39,032 nt of DNA. Origin: Candidatus Babeliales bacterium (GTDB lineage Bacteria; Babelota; Babeliae; Babelales; Vermiphilaceae). Location of the stretch: assembly GCA_044451405.1 (NCBI GenBank), contig JBIOKB010000003.1, positions 1 to 39,032 of the forward strand, written 5' to 3'. How positions within the stretch are numbered: position 1 is the first letter of the stretch; the number at the start of each line of letters is the position of its first letter. The position numbers are program-made. Positions 1 to 39,032 of this stretch are shown here, piece by piece.

Positions 1-3000
1 TTAATATGGATCATGAAGACCGAGATCACTCTGCTCATGAACAAATGGAAGAGCAGTTAACTGATTTTGATAAAGAATTGTTTGCATGCTGGGAGCAAGA
101 GAGAAAGAAATATACCGGCGACTTCTACATTGTAGTGATCACTAAGAAAGAGAAGTTATTAGCAAACGTAATCCGCAATTATTTCTTTTCCCGTCAGTCC
201 TGTCCTACTCCTGATTGGGATCAAACAGTCTATAAAGTATCGCGATATTTAGATGATGCAATTGATTATTTATGGTGCATCCCATCACGAGAAATCTGCC
301 AAGAATTTATCCATGATCCGTTATCCGTCCCCGAAGAAGAAAAACAATTGCTGAGTCACGTGCTTGATTTTAATGATGGCACACTATTCCGACTAGCAAA
401 ACAATTGAATGGTGAAGAGTTAGCAAGTCCATTATTAATATAGGAGAGTGAAGCATGTCAGGTTTTGATATTAAATATGATAAAAACGGCATGGCTATTA
501 AAGGGCCTGAACCAGTCATAGAAGAAGCACCGGTTGAAGCAGCACCACCAGAAGTTGAAGAAGTTGAAGCAGAATCTGAGTCTGATGATGTAGATCATGT
601 GCATGAAGATGAAATCATTGAAGAAGTAGTACCACAAAAGCCTCAAGTAAAACTATCATCTGAACAGCAAAATATGCGTGCATTACGCGAAAAAGCAGAA
701 CGCGCTGAACGTGAAGCTGATCGCAATGCTAAAGAACGCGATGAAATGATGCGCCTTATTCAAGAAATGCGTGCCAAGAATGAGCCTAAACTTCAGCTAA
801 AAAAAGAAGAACCTGAAGAAGATTATTCTTTTAGTATTGGTGATGATGATCTTGCTGAAGGCAAACATCTTGCCAAGATGCAAAAGCATATCAAGAAACT
901 TGAATCAGAATTAAAGAGTGTAAAACAACAATCAACTAGCATGTCAGTTGAGACACGTCTTAAGCTTCAGTATCCAGACATAGAAAAAGTGCTCAGCAAT
1001 GAGAATATACAGCGCTTAGGACAAGAAGAGCCAGAACTCGCCTATACTATTGGATCAAATACGGATTTATATACGCAGCAAGTTACCGCCTATAAATTGA
1101 TCAAGAAACTTGGTATATATAAAGATCAGACGTTTGATGCTGAAAAAGAGATCATTAAAAAGAATGCAGCTAAACCACGTCCTGTAGTGAGCCTATCTCC
1201 ACAGCAAGGAGATAGCCCATTATCGCGAGCAAATGCATTTGCTAATGGCTTAACAGAAGATCTCAAAAAGCAATTGAATCGTGAAATGCATGAAGCTACC
1301 AAGAACTTTTAAAAGCTCCTTTTAACTCACTGCTTACCGGATAGGCTTACTCACCTATCCGGGGTGGGATAACTTGCATTCTAAAATTGAGTGATGCATT
1401 ATAATATAAATCTAAGCAGAGGAGAATCGTATGAAACTCATCTATCAATGGCTTATCATTATTGGTCTTGTTGGGCTTTTATGGCTTGTCCATATACAAG
1501 CAGGCGGAAAATTAAGCAGACTTCTTTGCTTTAAAGAACCAACGTCACGAGCAAGTATCACCCAAAATATAATTATCAAAACTCGTCGTTACTCTCATGA
1601 AGTGGCTAAAGATGTAGTTGCTGATCAAGTTAAAGAACCATCTAAAGGATTACCCCAGACCATTGATCCAAGCACAGCCGTCAAATCCGATAAATCAGAA
1701 AAAGAAGAATCTAAAAAGGATGATGTACCTAAGGTTCCGACAACACCGCCTTCAAAGACAGCAAGCCAAAAAAGAAAAGCAAGACGAAAAGCAATAAAAG
1801 TAATAATTAGAAGCGAACCTGTCAGCCCACGAAGTGAATGGGATTGGTGTGACCGTGAACCAAAGATGATTCAATAATTAGTTATCGTTAGTAAATACTA
1901 ATTTACGTCCTTCAATTCTATCCATGTAAATATGGATATTCTTTTTAGCCAATCTATGTTTTTCCTTGGTATCTCGCGGTGCTTCCTTAATAGGTTTTGG
2001 CCGCTCTATCTTTGGTGGCGTTCCACCGCGTTCTGCACCATATCCTAATGTCGATACTAATAACAATAATAACGCATATCTAAACATATAAATCCTTTAA
2101 AAAAACATAGGGGCCCTAGAATGCCCCTACGCAATAATACCAAAAGCTCCTCCTACAAAAAGAGCATTCCCATCTTACCACAATAATCTTGAATGCGAAA
2201 ATTGAGATTATTACCCTTCAATTCTGAACGTAGTGAAGTGTCGTTCTCTTCTGGCGTATGAGCCTCGCCACCTCAGACGTATTCAAGTCTCGTCAACTTA
2301 AATTTGTTGTTTGTATTTACATACACCTATTTAAGGAAAAACTTTGGCTATAACAACTACAAGTACGTTGCCTGCTCCAGTGCAACAAAGCTTTAGCTAC
2401 AAGCTATTATCCGTTCCTGTTCCTAATATGATTCACAAAATACCGGCAATGAAAAAGAATATGCCGCGTAATGGTGGTACAACGCTAAGAATGCGTCGTT
2501 ACAATCCATTGAATACTGCAATGGTTCCATTAGGGAATGCTGGTGTTACTCCGCCAGCGCAGAATTTAACTGCCGTGGATAGACTTTATGTCCACGTTAA
2601 ATCTTCTCTAATAGACTTGGAAACCGAAGTAGTTTTTAACTAACCGGCAACAAGGGGCAAGATTATGGAATTTAAAGAACCATTTGTATGTGATAGTTGT
2701 GATTTTAAGATTACTCAATTGATTAGTAATTATAAATTCAATAGACAAGCAATGGTTAAAAGAGTTTGCGATTTTCAATCAGATAGATGTTTTTATGAAT
2801 TTATTGATTGGATTAAGAACAATTTCCATACTCAGCCTGAACGTAGCAAGCGAGAAGACCTCGAAAGAGGATGCGGTGCTCTGAACACGGCGGATAACGT
2901 CGTGAGGGATAAGTAGAGAAAGTCCCCGCCTAGAAATAGGTCACAAAAGTAACAGAATTGATAGATGCAAAAATTTCATTTTACGGGACATACGTCCAGC

Positions 3001-6000
3001 TCAATGAACAGGTAACATTACAAAATCAAGATCCAGTTTTGAATGAATGCGCAGCACGTCTAGGAGTGTCTTTACGACAAACCGAAGATCAGCTAACTCG
3101 CGATATGCTCGCAGCCACCGCTTCTTTCATCAACTGTGTTGCTGGATTTAACGGAGATAATCCTACTGAAATTACACGCGGAGATATTAATAACGTAGTG
3201 CGTACATTATTGAACAATAATGCCTACACAATTATGGATAATATCGAGGGTGAAGATAAGTTCGGTACAGCTCCGGTTCGTGATGCTTATTTTGCATTAG
3301 CATCAACCAACTTAACGGCGAATCTTGATAACGTAGCTGGATTCATACACAAAAACCAATATCCCGCTCCCAATGAGGCTTTACGAAGCGAATGGGGCAG
3401 CGCAGGAAATTTGCGATTCTTAGTTTCATCGATTGGATCGCAGACTTCGCAAGCATCATCTCTCGGAGCAACGGTCTACAATATCTTCTGTGTTGGTATG
3501 GAAGCTTATGCATGTATTGAACAAGATGGATACAGCGCAAGCTTTATTTATCGTCCACCAATATATGACGGTCCATTAGCTCTTAATGCTTCAGTTGGAT
3601 ATAAATTCGCCGAAGTGCCAAGAATAACCAATGATCAATGGGTAATTAATTTACGCGCAACATTGGCTTAATATTTCTATTAGGAGAACTATAACATGGA
3701 CGGAACTATATTAGGACAAGGTACGTTTACCGCGTCTTCTTTCGGACTAGCAAACCCGAACCCGGGAAATGCTGAACAATCCAATGCCGTACAAACCATT
3801 ATTCAGATTCCATCTGGTGCTGATTGGTTGCGGGTATTTAACTACACCCAATTTGGTGTGGCTGGTTGGGCTGGTGCAGCATATTTTAATGGAACTGCAA
3901 ATGCTGATGTTGGTGTAGAATTTTGGTGGCAACGTGGTATGGCTGCTGGAACTGGTATCGTTAAATATAAAGCTGCTGCAACAGCAGTCTTATCTGGCGA
4001 TACATTAGCATCTGGTGGTTTCACCCTTTACGATCCATCAGGAACTTCAACAGGTGCTCAGCCATTATTGAGTGCTCCGGTAGCAACAACTGCTTCTACA
4101 AACGTAACGCGTCCTATAGTAAGCACCGGTAATACTGCTGGTGTATCAGTAGGTACTGTTGTACGTCTATATGGCACAGCTCAAACAGATGTGAATGGTG
4201 TTGATTTTGTAGTTGGTGCCGTGACTGCTAATACAAGCTTCACGCTCTTAACTGCTTCTAATGCTTTAGCAACTGCTCCTGGCGCAATTGGTGGTGCTGG
4301 ATTCTATAGCATTGTCTATAACGGAAATAGCCAGCTCTTTTATCCACGTCGTCGTACGATCGTGAATATATCACAAGCTGCTAATGCTCAAGTTGGTACT
4401 TCAGTTGCTCATGGATTAACAGTAGGACAAGAAGTTCGCTTCAACATCCCATCTGTTTCTGGCATGACACAATTGAATGCAGATCCATTGAACAACTACT
4501 TCCCAAGTAACTCATTAGTGCCCGCAATTGTTATGAGTGTTGTGGATGACTATAACTTCACGATCAACATCAATACAACGGCATATACTGCATTTACCTA
4601 TCCAACCATTGCACAACAACCAAGTTCATTCCCTATCGTCGTGCCAATTGGTGAAGATACTGCAACATCATTGTCTTCAGCTTCTGCTCAAGTGCCAATG
4701 ATTGGTGGTCAACAAATCTTTAACACAAACAGCCAAATACTCGCTGATTCAACTGTTAACACTGGTTACTTAGGAATGATCTTAGGTATTGGTGGCCTTG
4801 GTATTGAAGCAGCTGCCGTGCCATTAATTGGGCCTGCTGGGTCTATTGCATGGTCTGCTGGAAATGCGCCAACAGGTGACATCTTGTATTGGGTTGCTGG
4901 TAAATCAACATTTGGCGGTCTTTAGTAATTAAATAGGGGGCTTCGGCCCCCTTCTATAGGAGAGCTATGGAAACAGAATTAAAACCACTTGATCTTACAC
5001 ACAATGGGAAAAGAGAAGATACCCAAGAACCAACTAAGAAATCTAAGAAGTTGAATTTAAAACAACTTCGGGAAAAGCACGCTAAACCAGTGCGTGGGAT
5101 ATTCCGTTACCACGAATGTCCAGGTGGCCTCATGAAATTTTCTTTCATGGAATTTAAAGAAGATGGCGTGAAAGATTATGCATTACAAGATGGCGAAGTG
5201 TATACCATACCACTTGGTGTTGCTCTTCATCTGAATAAGAACGTTGCGTACCCAGAGTATGACTACTTCAAGACCGAAGACAAGATGAAGAATACGTTTC
5301 AAGTCGCGCGTAAAGTGCGTCGTGTGAGTTTTCAGTCTTTGGAATTCATTGATGAAGAAGAGTTTAATTCACCAGATCGCATCTTGCAGGTTACTTCCGC
5401 ATTCTAGCTCAAAAAAGGAGAGTAGAGATGTCTACCTGTTACGCGCAACCAAATCCTATATTTCAACCGGCAATGCGCATCATTACTGCTATTACTAATG
5501 GCAATCCTGCTACGGTAACAACAAGTTTCGCGCATCAGTATATAAGTGGAACATTGGTTCGCTTAGATATCCCACCCGCAGATGGTATGCCAGAGGCAGA
5601 TCAATTTGTAGGTCCTATTACCGTAACAGGAACCACTACCTTTACTCTCCCGTTAGATACTACCACCTTCACACCTTTTGCAATTCCTGTATCGCCACTT
5701 TCTCAAATAAATACCTGCGCGCAAGTAGTCCCTATAGGTGAGATAACGCCGATTTTAGATGCGGCAGTTCAAAACGTTTTACCGTTTAAAGCATAGGAAA
5801 TACGATGGCAGATACATTACAAGGAATACAAACAAAAGTGCGACGCTTAACGCGTAGCATGTCAGAATCAGTGTTATCAACCGTAGATTTAAATGACTAT
5901 ATCAATACATTCGTTTTGTATGATATGCCTGAGCATCTCCGCTTATTTGATTTAAGAACGCAATTCACGTTCTACTGTAATCCCTATCAGGATGTATACG

Positions 6001-39000: not shown

Positions 39001-39032
39001 ATGTCAGGTTTTGATATTAAATATGATAAAAA

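What a model noticed while it worked through the whole genome (the two positions that open the first line are those of the whole stretch)
1..39032. 39-kb tailed-phage genome of an uncultured clade, with modules shared with the host chromosome
Contig C3 is a near-complete tailed-phage genome (terminase, P22-type portal, head, tail fibres, Erf, RusA, no integrase). It belongs to a widespread clade without cultured members. Its tail-fibre C-terminus, a DUF6496 protein and a GroES-like protein have their counterparts on chromosomal contigs of this Dependentiae genome. This makes it a candidate Dependentiae phage, which would be the first I know of.
Evidence so far: Pfam and PHROGs. 80 related IMG/VR contigs at 51-77% portal identity. 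Closest cultured phage at 24%. Tail fibre 39-40% identical over 340 aa to the C15 and C2 proteins (E about 1e-48), DUF6496 at 54%. Tetranucleotide correlation 0.925. A related portal in one other Dependentiae bin.
(Added by a program. Inside this text positions count along the whole contig: contig position 1 is position 1 of the stretch shown here. "Call 12" and the like, gene names such as g00115 and contig names such as C1 are that model's own, and its searches are not shown. The text may have been shortened before it was handed on; [...] marks where a part breaks off. The agent that wrote the report below was given it as the finding of a first reader that could run no searches.)

Follow-up and report, generated by a model that had tools for sequence, protein, structure and literature searches.

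The report
Candidate Dependentiae phage, complete genome
This contig is a complete genome of an uncultured tailed phage whose tail-fibre tip belongs to a protein family otherwise abundant in Dependentiae chromosomes, which makes that phylum of intracellular bacteria its most likely, but unproven, host.

Summary
C3 is a complete tailed-phage genome of about 38.5 kb, with terminase, P22-type portal, capsid, fibres, Erf and RusA, and no integrase. Its two ends are two alleles of one gene. I found 105 IMG/VR relatives. The closest cultured portal is 24% identical.

The host link is only partly supported.
- For: the fibre's C-terminal 344 aa (adhesin-like repeats plus a Peptidase_S74 chaperone) belong to a family that is multi-copy in Dependentiae chromosomes. 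It matched 47 of 260 other genomes at E<=1e-30, against 0 of 601 genomes from three control phyla. Seven phage copies sit among the Dependentiae copies in a tree.
- Against: co-binning does not discriminate. Close portal relatives occur in 2 of 260 Dependentiae genomes, in 1 of 200 non-seed Chlamydiota genomes, and in bins titled Bacteroidota and archaea. DUF6496 and GroES are not lineage-specific. There is no CRISPR array, prophage or tRNA link.

I put a Dependentiae host at about 0.6.

New here: the capsid gene is split by a 380-nt group I intron (2581-2960). It belongs to a compact intron family that Rfam misses and that has invaded at least eleven capsid-gene sites, and also portal genes, across the clade.

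The parts
1..39032 (+). Whole phage genome, circularly permuted in the assembly; the unit is about 38.55 kb
   Evidence: The last 75 nt equal 411-485 exactly, so position 39032 corresponds to 485. The syntenic 35.5-kb relative G192:C5 has a single copy of the end gene and is permuted. Relatives with direct terminal repeats are 34.9-38.3 kb.
3..443 (+). 5'-truncated allele A of a variable gene that lies upstream of ORF 455-1312
   Evidence: Mosaic identity to 38513-38989, with 100% runs next to divergent runs; both copies are followed by the same start of ORF 455-1312.
38513..38989 (+). Allele B of the same gene (158 aa)
   Evidence: relatives found in 61 of 80 IMG/VR loci.
2344..2580 (+). Major capsid protein, exon 1 (79 codons, TTG start)
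   Evidence: phrog_1357 positions 22-100. 78% identical to aa 1-79 of the uninterrupted G414 homologue.
2581..2960 (+). Group I intron with a small ORF in a loop
   Evidence: Covariance model R1 hit at 2581-2959, 110 bits, E 1e-27, the only hit in the window. Exon 1 ends in T paired to an internal guide G, and the insert ends in G.
2665..2916 (+). Intron ORF, 83 aa, Cys-rich, function unknown
   Evidence: No Pfam or PHROG hit. Similar small Cys-rich ORFs occupy the same loop in the introns of L136, L141 and G192:C3.
2961..3671 (+). Major capsid protein, exon 2
   Evidence: phrog_1357 positions 106-302, 1.4e-18. 76% identical to G414 aa 80-315. The intact G414 gene matches phrog_1357 positions 22-302 in one stretch.
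5805..6809 (+). Tail protein
   Evidence: phrog_10775, 6.7e-6.
7384..9636 (+). 750-aa virion protein, possibly a P22 gp10-like tail hub (a lead only)
   Evidence: The Atlas look-alikes are all viral; one cluster carries PF11134 Phage_stabilise at score 0.95. No Pfam, PHROG or PDB sequence hit.
14350..14538 (-). MerR/excisionase-type HTH protein
   Evidence: HTH_17, 7e-10; phrog_66.
14752..15936 (+). Fibre or spike-like structural protein that shares stalk repeats with the fibre
   Evidence: phrog_6002, phrog_23837 and phrog_4636. 31% identical to the same C2 and C15 proteins.
17140..18108 (+). C1q-domain protein in the fibre module
   Evidence: PF00386, 30 bits against a cut-off of 23.7.
18121..20265 (+). 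Tail fibre, 714 aa
   Evidence: phrog_1980, phrog_33119 and others.
19231..20265 (+). Fibre C-terminal module shared with Dependentiae chromosomes: adhesin-like repeats plus a Peptidase_S74 chaperone (19987-20148)
20713..21291 (-). Erf single-strand annealing protein
   Evidence: PF04404, 63.8 bits; phrog_155, 4e-25.
22778..23718 (+). Two endonuclease VII-type genes
   Evidence: phrog_2633, 2e-17 and 2e-23.
24248..25390 (+). Replication initiator (HTH_36, O-like)
25778..26287 (+). RusA resolvase
   Evidence: phrog_140, 2e-12.
27890..28150 (+). GroES-like co-chaperonin
   Evidence: Cpn10, 24.4 bits; phrog_3188. 39% identical to the MAG's GroES.
28147..28959 (+). SPFH/Band 7 protein
   Evidence: PF01145, 79.8 bits.
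29733..30302 (+). Fic-domain protein
   Evidence: PF02661, 25.8 bits against a cut-off of 24.
31278..32648 (+). Terminase large subunit
   Evidence: phrog_2472, 7e-40; phrog_2, 2e-28.
34504..34577 (+). tRNA with an 8-nt anticodon loop (run of A)
   Evidence: ARAGORN; Rfam tRNA, 47.6 bits; sequence read.
34746..34818 (+). tRNA-Ile(AAU)
   Evidence: The MAG's own tRNA-Ile has anticodon GAU.
35313..37370 (+). P22-type portal
   Evidence: PF16510, 248 bits; phrog_156, 6.5e-77.
38157..38510 (+). DUF6496 protein, a core gene of the clade
   Evidence: PF20106, 65.6 bits. Relatives in 33 of 80 IMG/VR loci at 42-82%.

Best explanation
C3 is the complete genome, about 38.5 kb, of a non-integrating tailed phage. 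It is probably podovirus-like, with a P22-type portal. It belongs to a large uncultured clade, and its most likely host is a Dependentiae bacterium.

Shown:
- The gene set, the synteny with relatives and the closure of the genome.
- The fibre tip is built from adhesin-like beta-roll repeats followed by a self-cleaving Peptidase_S74 chaperone.
- This module is one family with the C-termini of many giant proteins encoded in Dependentiae chromosomes.
- The capsid gene needs a group I intron removed to be read.

Inferred:
- The shared module reflects gene exchange during infection, so the phage and its fibre-sharing relatives infect Dependentiae.
- The S74 domain trimerises the fibre and is cut off at the conserved Ser/Lys motif.
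- The phage replicates lytically, or at least without integration.
For: Phage identity.

Closure:
- The two ends are alleles of one locus, and the last 75 nt are identical to 411-485.
- G192:C5 is syntenic (30 of 67 ORF products match), holds a single copy of the end gene, and has a gene running across its own ends.
- 3 of 10 long IMG/VR relatives have direct terminal repeats at 34.9-38.3 kb.
- G414:C102 has 99 identical bases at both ends.

Host, from the fibre module:
- It matches 67 of 260 other genomes of the phylum at E<=1e-5 and 47 of 260 at E<=1e-30 (my count from the table).
- The matches show 40-50% identity over about 300 aa, with up to 16 matches listed per genome. They lie inside open frames of up to 7397 aa, in single-contig genomes that have no portal match.
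- Controls at E<=1e-30: 0 of 200 Chlamydiota (best 102.6 bits), 0 of 200 non-seed Bacteroidota (best 64.3 bits) and 0 of 201 genomes of G265's phylum (best 55.2 bits).
- In a 42-row tree the 7 phage copies lie among the Dependentiae copies.
- Each phage copy's best Dependentiae match (41-50%, 174-222 bits) nearly equals its best match on another phage contig (41-51%) and far exceeds its best control match (31-34%, 104-115 bits). This includes the copies on the contig binned as Agriterribacter.

Other support:
- Three MAGs of the phylum (G000, G173, G192) each hold a close relative.
- Shine-Dalgarno-like motifs precede 23 of 40 phage ORFs and 241 of 579 MAG ORFs.
- No integrase was found.
Against: - There is no direct link. 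The MAG has no CRISPR-like array and no spacer-like match.
- No integrated copy exists: all five portal matches in the phylum, the window's own among them, lie on separate contigs of 2.7-39 kb.
- The tRNAs give no link.
- Portal relatives are missing from 257 of 260 other genomes of the phylum, including all the single-contig ones.
- Close relatives are also binned into 2 of 201 Chlamydiota genomes, one of which was the seed. Others sit in MAGs titled Bacteroidota, Planctomycetia and three archaea.
- C3 is a compositional outlier in its bin (r 0.925 against a median of 0.976).
- The shared module is a repeat stalk plus a folding chaperone, not a demonstrated receptor-binding domain. At 40-50% identity the exchange is old.
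- Two Chlamydiota copies nest inside the same radiation.
- Only three control phyla were sampled. Pseudomonadota could not be reached.
- 3 of 10 long relatives and G414:C102 lack the module.
Confidence: 0.6

Rival explanations
1. The phage infects another bacterium and was co-binned with the Dependentiae MAG by similar G+C and coverage. The true host would be, for example, an environmental chlamydia or another protist-associated or free-living bacterium of low G+C. The fibre module would then be a widely travelling phage part that Dependentiae also acquired.
For: - Relatives are binned into six other lineages.
- A complete 58%-portal relative sits in a second Chlamydiota MAG, found in 1 of 200 non-seed genomes. 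That rate is similar to the 2 of 260 in Dependentiae.
- C3 is the third-lowest contig by tetranucleotide correlation.
- Two Chlamydiota module copies nest within the Dependentiae radiation.
- S74 domains are generally widespread; the control genomes E. coli and B. thetaiotaomicron also give a match.
Against: - The full module is absent at E<=1e-30 from 601 control genomes, but present in 47 of 260 Dependentiae genomes.
- The Chlamydiota-binned relative G414:C102 lacks the module. Its 468-aa candidate fibre has no homologue elsewhere in 4 Chlamydiota genomes.
- A Bacteroidota host fits poorly with frequent Shine-Dalgarno-like motifs. That Bacteroidota rarely use such motifs is recalled knowledge.
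- Archaeal bins cannot host a phage with this bacterial gene set (inference).
Confidence: 0.3
2. The element is a temperate or episomal (plasmid-like) prophage of the MAG organism rather than a virulent phage.
For: - It has a lambdoid-style recombination and replication set: Erf, RusA, an O-like initiator and a MerR/excisionase-type HTH.
- Transcription diverges around 22.4-22.6 kb.
Against: - No integrase, partition gene or recognisable repressor was found among 65 ORFs.
- No integrated copy exists in 261 genomes of the phylum.
- Relatives have direct terminal repeats.
Confidence: 0.05
3. The 87% end repeat is a real pair of paralogous genes, or the contig is an incomplete fragment, rather than a closed genome assembled from two strains.
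For: The repeat is not identical, so a standard circularity test fails.
Against: - Both copies are followed by the same start of ORF 455-1312, and the first copy is cut by the contig's start.
- Relatives carry one copy.
- The size matches DTR-bearing relatives rated 100% complete.
Confidence: 0.05

Closest known systems
P22-like / lambdoid podoviruses (portal family PF16510)
   Same: P22-type portal (248 bits), a large terminase, an Erf, RusA and O-like replication set, and fibres or spikes at the end of the structural block. One look-alike cluster of the 750-aa protein carries the P22 gp10 family (a lead only).
   Different: The best cultured portal is only 24% identical. There is no integrase or recognisable repressor. 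The capsid family is phrog_1357. Most structural genes have no family. The host is probably not a proteobacterium.
Known phages of obligate intracellular or symbiotic bacteria: Chlamydia microviruses, Wolbachia WO, Hamiltonella APSE (recalled, not searched here)
   Same: If the host link holds, this is a virus of a bacterium that lives inside eukaryotic cells.
   Different: Those are small ssDNA viruses or temperate phages found integrated in host genomes. This one has no integrase and no integrated copy in 261 genomes.
Fibres and spikes with a C-terminal intramolecular chaperone (Peptidase_S74): K1F endosialidase, T5 pb1, and the MyRF ICA domain (PMC4690869, PMC3742443 and PMC8326128 seen in the listing)
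   Same: Peptidase_S74 at aa 623-676 (46 bits). A conserved Ser-rich site followed by R-Y-K, seen (its role as the cleavage motif is recalled). The model's C-terminal part matches MyRF ICA 7dc3 (prob 1.0) and the endosialidase chaperone 3gud (prob 0.98).
   Different: The stalk in front of it is made of repeats of about 17 residues that resemble trimeric autotransporter adhesin heads (9gh5 prob 0.93, 3s6l prob 0.63). All Foldseek E-values are above 0.001. The same module ends giant chromosomal proteins of Dependentiae.
Group I introns in phage genes: T4 td/nrdB and Twort (recalled); crAss-like phages (PMC7886860, listing only)
   Same: P1 with a U.G pair at the 5' splice site, a terminal G, a P3/P7 pseudoknot, a P4-P6 domain, and LAGLIDADG genes in some copies.
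   Different: The core is compact, about 190-240 nt. No Rfam 15 model detects it, even at E<=10. It has spread to at least eleven sites of one capsid gene, and to portal genes, within one clade.

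Membership tests
Tailed phage (Caudoviricetes) | Large terminase, portal and major capsid protein together with tail genes | tested here: met
   TerL phrog_2472 7e-40; portal PF16510 248 bits; MCP phrog_1357 in two exons; tail and fibre PHROGs.
Complete genome | Identical terminal repeat or circular closure | tested here: inconclusive
   The ends overlap by about 485 nt at 87%, and the last 75 nt are identical. This fits closure across two alleles. Size and gene content equal DTR-bearing relatives. No reads were available.
P22-like portal family (PF16510) | Score above Pfam's gathering cut-off over the full profile | tested here: met
   248.4 bits against a cut-off of 26.1, profile positions 4-591 of 594.
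Phage of Dependentiae (host assignment) | CRISPR spacer of the host lineage matching the phage | tested here: not met
   The own MAG has no CRISPR-like array and no spacer-like match. Other genomes of the phylum were not searched for spacers.
Phage of Dependentiae (host assignment) | Integrated copy or remnant flanked by host genes | tested here: not met
   All five portal matches in the 261 genomes, the window's own among them, lie on separate contigs of 2.7-39 kb.
Phage of Dependentiae (host assignment) | Genes shared specifically with the host lineage | tested here: met
   Fibre module: 47 of 260 genomes against 0 of 601 controls at E<=1e-30; see also the tree and best-hit table. DUF6496 and GroES are not specific.
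Phage of Dependentiae (host assignment) | Repeated, specific co-binning with the host lineage | tested here: inconclusive
   Close relatives occur in 2 of 260 other genomes of the phylum, in 1 of 200 non-seed Chlamydiota and in 0 of 200 non-seed Bacteroidota. Six further lineages appear.
Phage of Dependentiae (host assignment) | Infection shown by experiment or physical linkage | not testable with these tools
   Needs co-culture, Hi-C or single-cell data.
Peptidase_S74 intramolecular-chaperone fibre | S74 domain at the C-terminus with the conserved Ser...Lys site | tested here: met
   46.1 bits against a cut-off of 22. The Ser-rich site followed by R-Y-K is invariant in 3 of 3 aligned proteins. 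The fold matches 7dc3 and 3gud at high probability but weak E-value. Cleavage itself was not tested.
Group I intron | P1 helix pairing the 5' exon end to an internal guide, with U.G at the splice site | tested here: met
   6 of 6 pairs in 18 of 21 introns, and the guide changes with the insertion site. Mismatched exon-intron controls reach this in 10% of cases. In the window the six exon bases before 2581 pair with 2590-2595.
Group I intron | Terminal G at the 3' splice site | tested here: met
   The window insert ends in G at 2960. Most relatives end with the same short G-terminal motif.
Group I intron | P3/P7 pseudoknot with the P4-P6 and P8/P9 helices | tested here: met
   P7 was not part of the model, yet 32 of 32 sequences pair and 3 of 5 pairs show changes on both sides. 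Whole structure: 96.4% of cells paired, 44 of 52 pairs compensatory, 0 of 500 shuffles as high, 38-48% when slid. The alignment was fitted to the nested helices, which favours them.
Group I intron | Match to a curated Rfam intron model | tested here: not met
   No intron family at gathering score in the window or in 7 relatives. Nothing credible at E<=10 in two short stretches.
Group I intron | GTP-dependent self-splicing | not testable with these tools
   No RNA run was listed. Needs RT-PCR or in-vitro splicing.

The most novel reading that the evidence does not exclude
This clade is a lineage of virulent podovirus-like phages that specialises on Dependentiae. Its tail-fibre tips and the bacterium's own expanded family of giant adhesin-like proteins form one exchanging gene pool. 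Either the bacterium has repeatedly domesticated fibres of its own phages as surface fibres for attaching to its protist host, or the phage copies host adhesins. In the second case the phage might reach its intracellular host by being taken up by the protist in the same way.
Probability: 0.15. Interest if true: 0.85.

Novelty: new member of a known kind. Interest (0 to 1): 0.62.

Why it matters
Dependentiae are a widespread phylum of obligate parasites or symbionts of protists. My four literature searches found no described phage for them. Few phages of any intracellular bacteria are known.

A host link for a clade with more than 100 metagenomic genomes would:
- give a first handle on viral control of these bacteria;
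- provide a testable source for their unusual giant surface proteins;
- supply natural tools (fibres, recombinases, a compact self-splicing intron) for a group that has no genetics.

The result also shows that co-binning is a poor host signal for this clade, and that Rfam misses a well-supported group I intron family.

Tried and rejected
- Rfam found only the two tRNAs. It found no intron model in the window, in the 551-nt stretch, in 7 relatives or in a four-intron stretch.
- Sequencing runs: none was listed, and no RNA holder was listed. Read-based closure, coverage and splicing tests were therefore not possible.
'of' refuses loci, and the E. coli record received a W handle, which has no relatives.
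- DUF6496 was rejected as a host marker, and so was GroES.
- tRNAs give no link. Neither window tRNA recurs in relatives: 21 of 91 sources hold a tRNA, and 16 of those tRNAs are tRNA-Glu.
- The intron profile found no copy in the MAG outside C3 (nhmmer).
- The candidate fibre of the Chlamydiota-binned relative matched only itself in 4 Chlamydiota genomes (one protein only).
- PDB sequence searches with the 750-aa protein, the 334-aa tail protein and the fibre gave nothing usable.
- Foldseek on the fibre module gave no match at E<=0.001, so I treat the matches as leads.
- An intein reading of the capsid-gene inserts was rejected. Most inserts change the frame and carry stop codons.

Full report
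**What the window is.** The window is the whole of contig C3 (39,032 bp, G+C 0.392). It belongs to a MAG of 89 contigs and 1.02 Mb whose contigs have G+C 0.39-0.42. I picked 67 non-overlapping ORFs and scanned 65 against Pfam and PHROGs. The scans gave a standard tailed-phage set:
- large terminase (31278-32648; phrog_2472 7e-40, phrog_2 2e-28);
- P22-type portal (35313-37370; PF16510 248 bits; phrog_156 6.5e-77);
- major head protein phrog_1357, in two pieces;
- several tail and fibre proteins, and a 714-aa fibre ending in Peptidase_S74;
- Erf, two endonuclease VII genes, an O-like replication initiator and RusA;
- GroES-like, SPFH, DUF551, Fic and DUF6496 proteins.

No integrase, partition protein or recognisable repressor was found. 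No tape-measure-like family was hit. The 750-aa protein has only viral look-alikes, and one cluster of them carries the P22 gp10 family. This is a lead that fits a podovirus-type tail.

**Completeness.** Bases 104-486 match 38660-39032 at 86.7%. A global alignment shows what this repeat is.
- ORF 3-443, cut off by the contig's start, and ORF 38513-38989 are two mosaic alleles of one gene.
- Both are followed by the same start of ORF 455-1312.
- The last 75 nt of the contig are identical to 411-485.

So the assembly ran once round a circular or terminally redundant genome of about 38.55 kb and met a second strain's allele. Relatives agree.
- G192:C5 (35.5 kb) is syntenic: 30 of 67 ORF products match. 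It has one copy of that gene, and one of its genes runs across its own ends.
- 3 of 10 long IMG/VR relatives have direct terminal repeats at 34.9-38.3 kb and are rated 100% complete.
- G414:C102 (35.5 kb) has 99 identical bases at both ends.

No reads could be laid to confirm closure.

**The clade.** The portal found 105 IMG/VR contigs. The best 80 were kept, at 51-77% identity. Among 50,697 phage records, 79 matched, all below 60% identity. None covered 80% of the query, and the best identities were about 24%.

**Shared modules, as observed.**
- fibre aa 371-714 to C2 (38%, 4e-48);
- fibre aa 386-714 to C15 (40%, 1e-46);
- DUF6496 to C18 (54% over 52 aa).

The GroES-like ORF is 39% identical to the MAG's GroES on C17. 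The C2 protein has at least 1331 aa, with LVIVD beta-propeller repeats and a C-terminal S74 domain. It lies next to DJ-1 and a transketolase-type gene. The C15 protein has 484 aa and lies between a UvrA-like gene and MutS, near L21 and a tRNA synthetase. A third protein of at least 1180 aa, on C10 beside MutL and an ankyrin protein, shares stalk repeats. These are chromosomal genes, not prophage remnants.

**Is the fibre module informative about the host? Yes.** I searched the C-terminal 344 aa over all 261 genomes held for the phylum. It matched 67 of the 260 others at E<=1e-5. By my count from that table, 47 matched at E<=1e-30.
- Identity was 40-50% over about 300 residues, and the best hit scored 215 bits.
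- Up to 16 matches were listed per genome.
- Many matches lie deep inside single-contig genomes, at the ends of open frames of up to 7397 aa.
- None of those 47 genomes has a portal of this clade, so these copies are not stray contigs of this clade.

The same search in three control phyla gave far less.

| Group searched | Genomes with a match at E<=1e-5 | Best hit | Genomes at E<=1e-30 |
|---|---|---|---|
| Other genomes of the window's phylum | 67 of 260 | 215 bits | 47 |
| Phylum of the Chlamydiia-titled MAG | 3 of 200 | 102.6 bits, 2e-29 | 0 |
| Bacteroidota, non-seed genomes | 38 of 200, mostly partial | 64.3 bits | 0 |
| Phylum of G265 (record titled Planctomycetia; genomes 0.7-2.7 Mb, so its identity is uncertain) | 21 of 201 | 55.2 bits | 0 |

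I built a quick maximum-likelihood tree of 42 copies: 7 phage, 2 own-chromosome, 28 other Dependentiae and 5 controls. One duplicate row was dropped.
- The phage copies lie scattered among the Dependentiae copies in a poorly resolved radiation.
- Three of the five control copies fall outside it.
- Two Chlamydiota copies nest inside it.

Pairwise comparison gives the same picture. Every phage copy's best Dependentiae match (41-50%, 174-222 bits) is close to its best match on another phage contig (41-51%). It is far above its best control match (31-34%). This holds for the two copies on the contig binned as Agriterribacter. In the 5.8-billion-protein collection, most of the 120 best hits lie on contigs of 30-41 kb. 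That suggests relatives of this phage, which I did not verify.

**What the module is.** It consists of repeats of about 17 residues, followed by a conserved block and the S74 domain with an invariant Ser-rich site and R-Y-K. An AlphaFold model (mean pLDDT 76) shows a regular beta-roll and then a helical C-terminal domain. Foldseek puts the C-terminal part with the MyRF ICA domain and the endosialidase chaperone. It puts the repeats with trimeric autotransporter adhesin heads. All E-values are above 0.001, so these are leads that agree with Pfam. The shared part is therefore a trimeric stalk plus its folding chaperone. A distinct receptor-binding domain is not evident, which limits what the sharing says about adsorption.

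**Lines of evidence that do not discriminate.**
- DUF6496 is present in 34 of 150 sampled Dependentiae genomes, 24 of 150 Chlamydiota and 9 of 150 non-seed Bacteroidota. In the phage it is a core gene, found in 33 of 80 loci.
- Co-binning. Besides G000, the portal occurs in G192 (68%, plus a second phage-like contig at 31%), G173 (67%) and G083 (39%). That is 3 of 260 genomes, 2 of them close relatives.
- A pattern scan of 185,579 species found relatives at 47-70% in MAGs titled Agriterribacter, Chlamydiia, Planctomycetia, Nitrososphaeria, Nitrosopumilaceae and Bathyarchaeia.
- The same-sensitivity search found a 58% portal in 1 of 200 non-seed Chlamydiota genomes and none in 200 non-seed Bacteroidota.
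- Binning therefore favours small, low-G+C genomes in general. It cannot separate Dependentiae from Chlamydiota.
- C3's tetranucleotide correlation with the rest of the bin is 0.925, the third lowest of 42 contigs (median 0.976).
- The MAG has no CRISPR-like array and no spacer-like match.
- The Chlamydiota-binned relative G414:C102 lacks the module. Its 468-aa candidate fibre has no homologue elsewhere in four Chlamydiota genomes.
- Shine-Dalgarno-like motifs are frequent in both phage and MAG. By recalled knowledge this speaks against a Bacteroidota host only.

**Verdict on the host.** One strong, lineage-specific line of gene sharing points to Dependentiae for this phage and for its fibre-sharing relatives. 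Nothing shows infection. I put a Dependentiae host at about 0.6 and another host with mis-binning at about 0.3.

**Literature.** Four full-text searches found no paper describing a Dependentiae phage.
- The Chromulinavorax paper reports no CRISPR loci (PMC6561590, passages).
- One soil virome paper lists in-silico virus links to Dependentiae (PMC12615777, one passage).
- Supplements were not opened.

**The capsid gene is split by a group I intron.** phrog_1357 matched two ORFs in different frames. Intact homologues place the break after codon 79. Exon 1 is 2344-2580, the insert is 2581-2960 (380 nt), and exon 2 is 2961-3671.

Across 54 sources with a capsid match (one contig was present twice), seven have uninterrupted full-length genes. 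The others carry one to four inserts. I extracted 38 inserts of 190-1249 nt, lying after codons 31, 52, 79, 88, 97-107, 115-122, 144, 164, 184, 269 and 280. All share one conserved core.

Evidence that the core is a group I intron:
- RNAalifold gave 49 pairs, 31 of them with compensatory changes.
- A covariance model found 73 matches over 1.19 Mb, with every match on the strand of the interrupted gene. Exactly one is in the window (2581-2959, 110 bits, E 1e-27). Some matches lie inside portal genes of relatives.
- On 32 strong matches, 96.4% of cells pair and 44 of 52 pairs show changes on both sides. No shuffle out of 500 reached this, and slid controls pair at 38-48%. The alignment was fitted to the nested helices, which favours them.
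- A five-pair pseudoknot that was not in the model, of the P3/P7 kind, pairs in 32 of 32 sequences. Three of its five pairs are compensatory.
- In 18 of 21 introns the last six exon bases, ending in U, pair perfectly with a guide 7-11 nt inside the intron, with U.G at the splice site. The guide changes with the insertion site. Mismatched controls reach this in 10% of cases.
- The inserts end in G.
- Four of 11 long-insert ORFs are LAGLIDADG endonucleases.

Together these are the defining features of group I introns, yet no Rfam 15 model detects the family. The window's intron carries an 83-aa Cys-rich ORF of unknown function in a loop. The intron profile finds no copy elsewhere in the MAG. Introns in phage structural genes are known, so this is a new member of a known kind.

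**Other features.** Both window tRNAs have A at the first anticodon position. One is tRNA-Ile(AAU). The other has an 8-nt loop made of a run of A. The MAG uses tRNA-Ile(GAU) and tRNA-Phe(GAA). Relatives carry other tRNAs, mostly tRNA-Glu.

Noticed in passing
window 2581-2960: The major capsid gene is interrupted by a 380-nt group I intron. The intron belongs to a compact family (core of 190-240 nt) that no Rfam model detects. In relatives the family occupies at least eleven capsid-gene sites.
   Followed up: yes
window 2665-2916: An 83-aa Cys-rich ORF sits in a loop of the intron and runs into the conserved core. Similar small Cys-rich ORFs occupy the same loop in introns of L136, L141 and G192:C3. 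No family was found.
   Followed up: partly
L105:10668-10866; L132:2231-2454 and 3377-3591; L137:8187-8404: The same intron family also interrupts the portal genes of some relatives (covariance-model hits inside the portal matches).
   Followed up: partly
window 34504-34577 and 34746-34818: Both phage tRNAs have A at the first anticodon position. One is tRNA-Ile(AAU). The other has an 8-nt anticodon loop made of a run of A, which could be a four-base anticodon, a tRNA-Phe(AAA) with an assembly slip, or a pseudogene. Neither is conserved in relatives.
   Followed up: partly
window 3-443 and 38513-38989: The gene upstream of ORF 455-1312 exists as two mosaic alleles, with 100% identical runs beside runs of about 60% identity. 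This suggests a hypervariable or recombining locus in the phage population.
   Followed up: partly
G244:C1 1.13-1.22 Mb; G252:C1 0.955-1.005 Mb; G195, G253, G255 and others: Dependentiae chromosomes hold clusters of giant genes (open frames up to 7397 aa) that all end in the fibre-like repeat plus S74 module. This is a large paralogous family in genomes of only 1-1.7 Mb.
   Followed up: partly
G437:C83 and G343:C71 (L057, L058): Two module copies from the Chlamydiia-titled control phylum nest inside the Dependentiae radiation, next to the window MAG's C2 copy. This could be transfer between co-resident protist symbionts or a binning error.
   Followed up: no
G192:C3 (L018, 20.3 kb): The same Dependentiae MAG that holds the 68% relative also holds a second, distant phage-like contig. 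It has a portal at 31%, a capsid gene with an intron of the same family, and a tRNA-Ala.
   Followed up: partly
G192:C5 32070-33012 (L017): The capsid gene of this relative changes frame twice without an insert. These are probably sequencing or assembly indels.
   Followed up: no
window 27890-30302: A run of accessory genes unusual for a small phage: GroES-like, SPFH/Band 7, DUF551 and a Fic-domain protein.
   Followed up: no
G000:C10 25162-28701 (L003 9163-12702): A third chromosomal protein of at least 1180 aa, with fibre-like stalk repeats, is cut by the contig end. It lies beside MutL and an ankyrin-repeat gene.
   Followed up: partly
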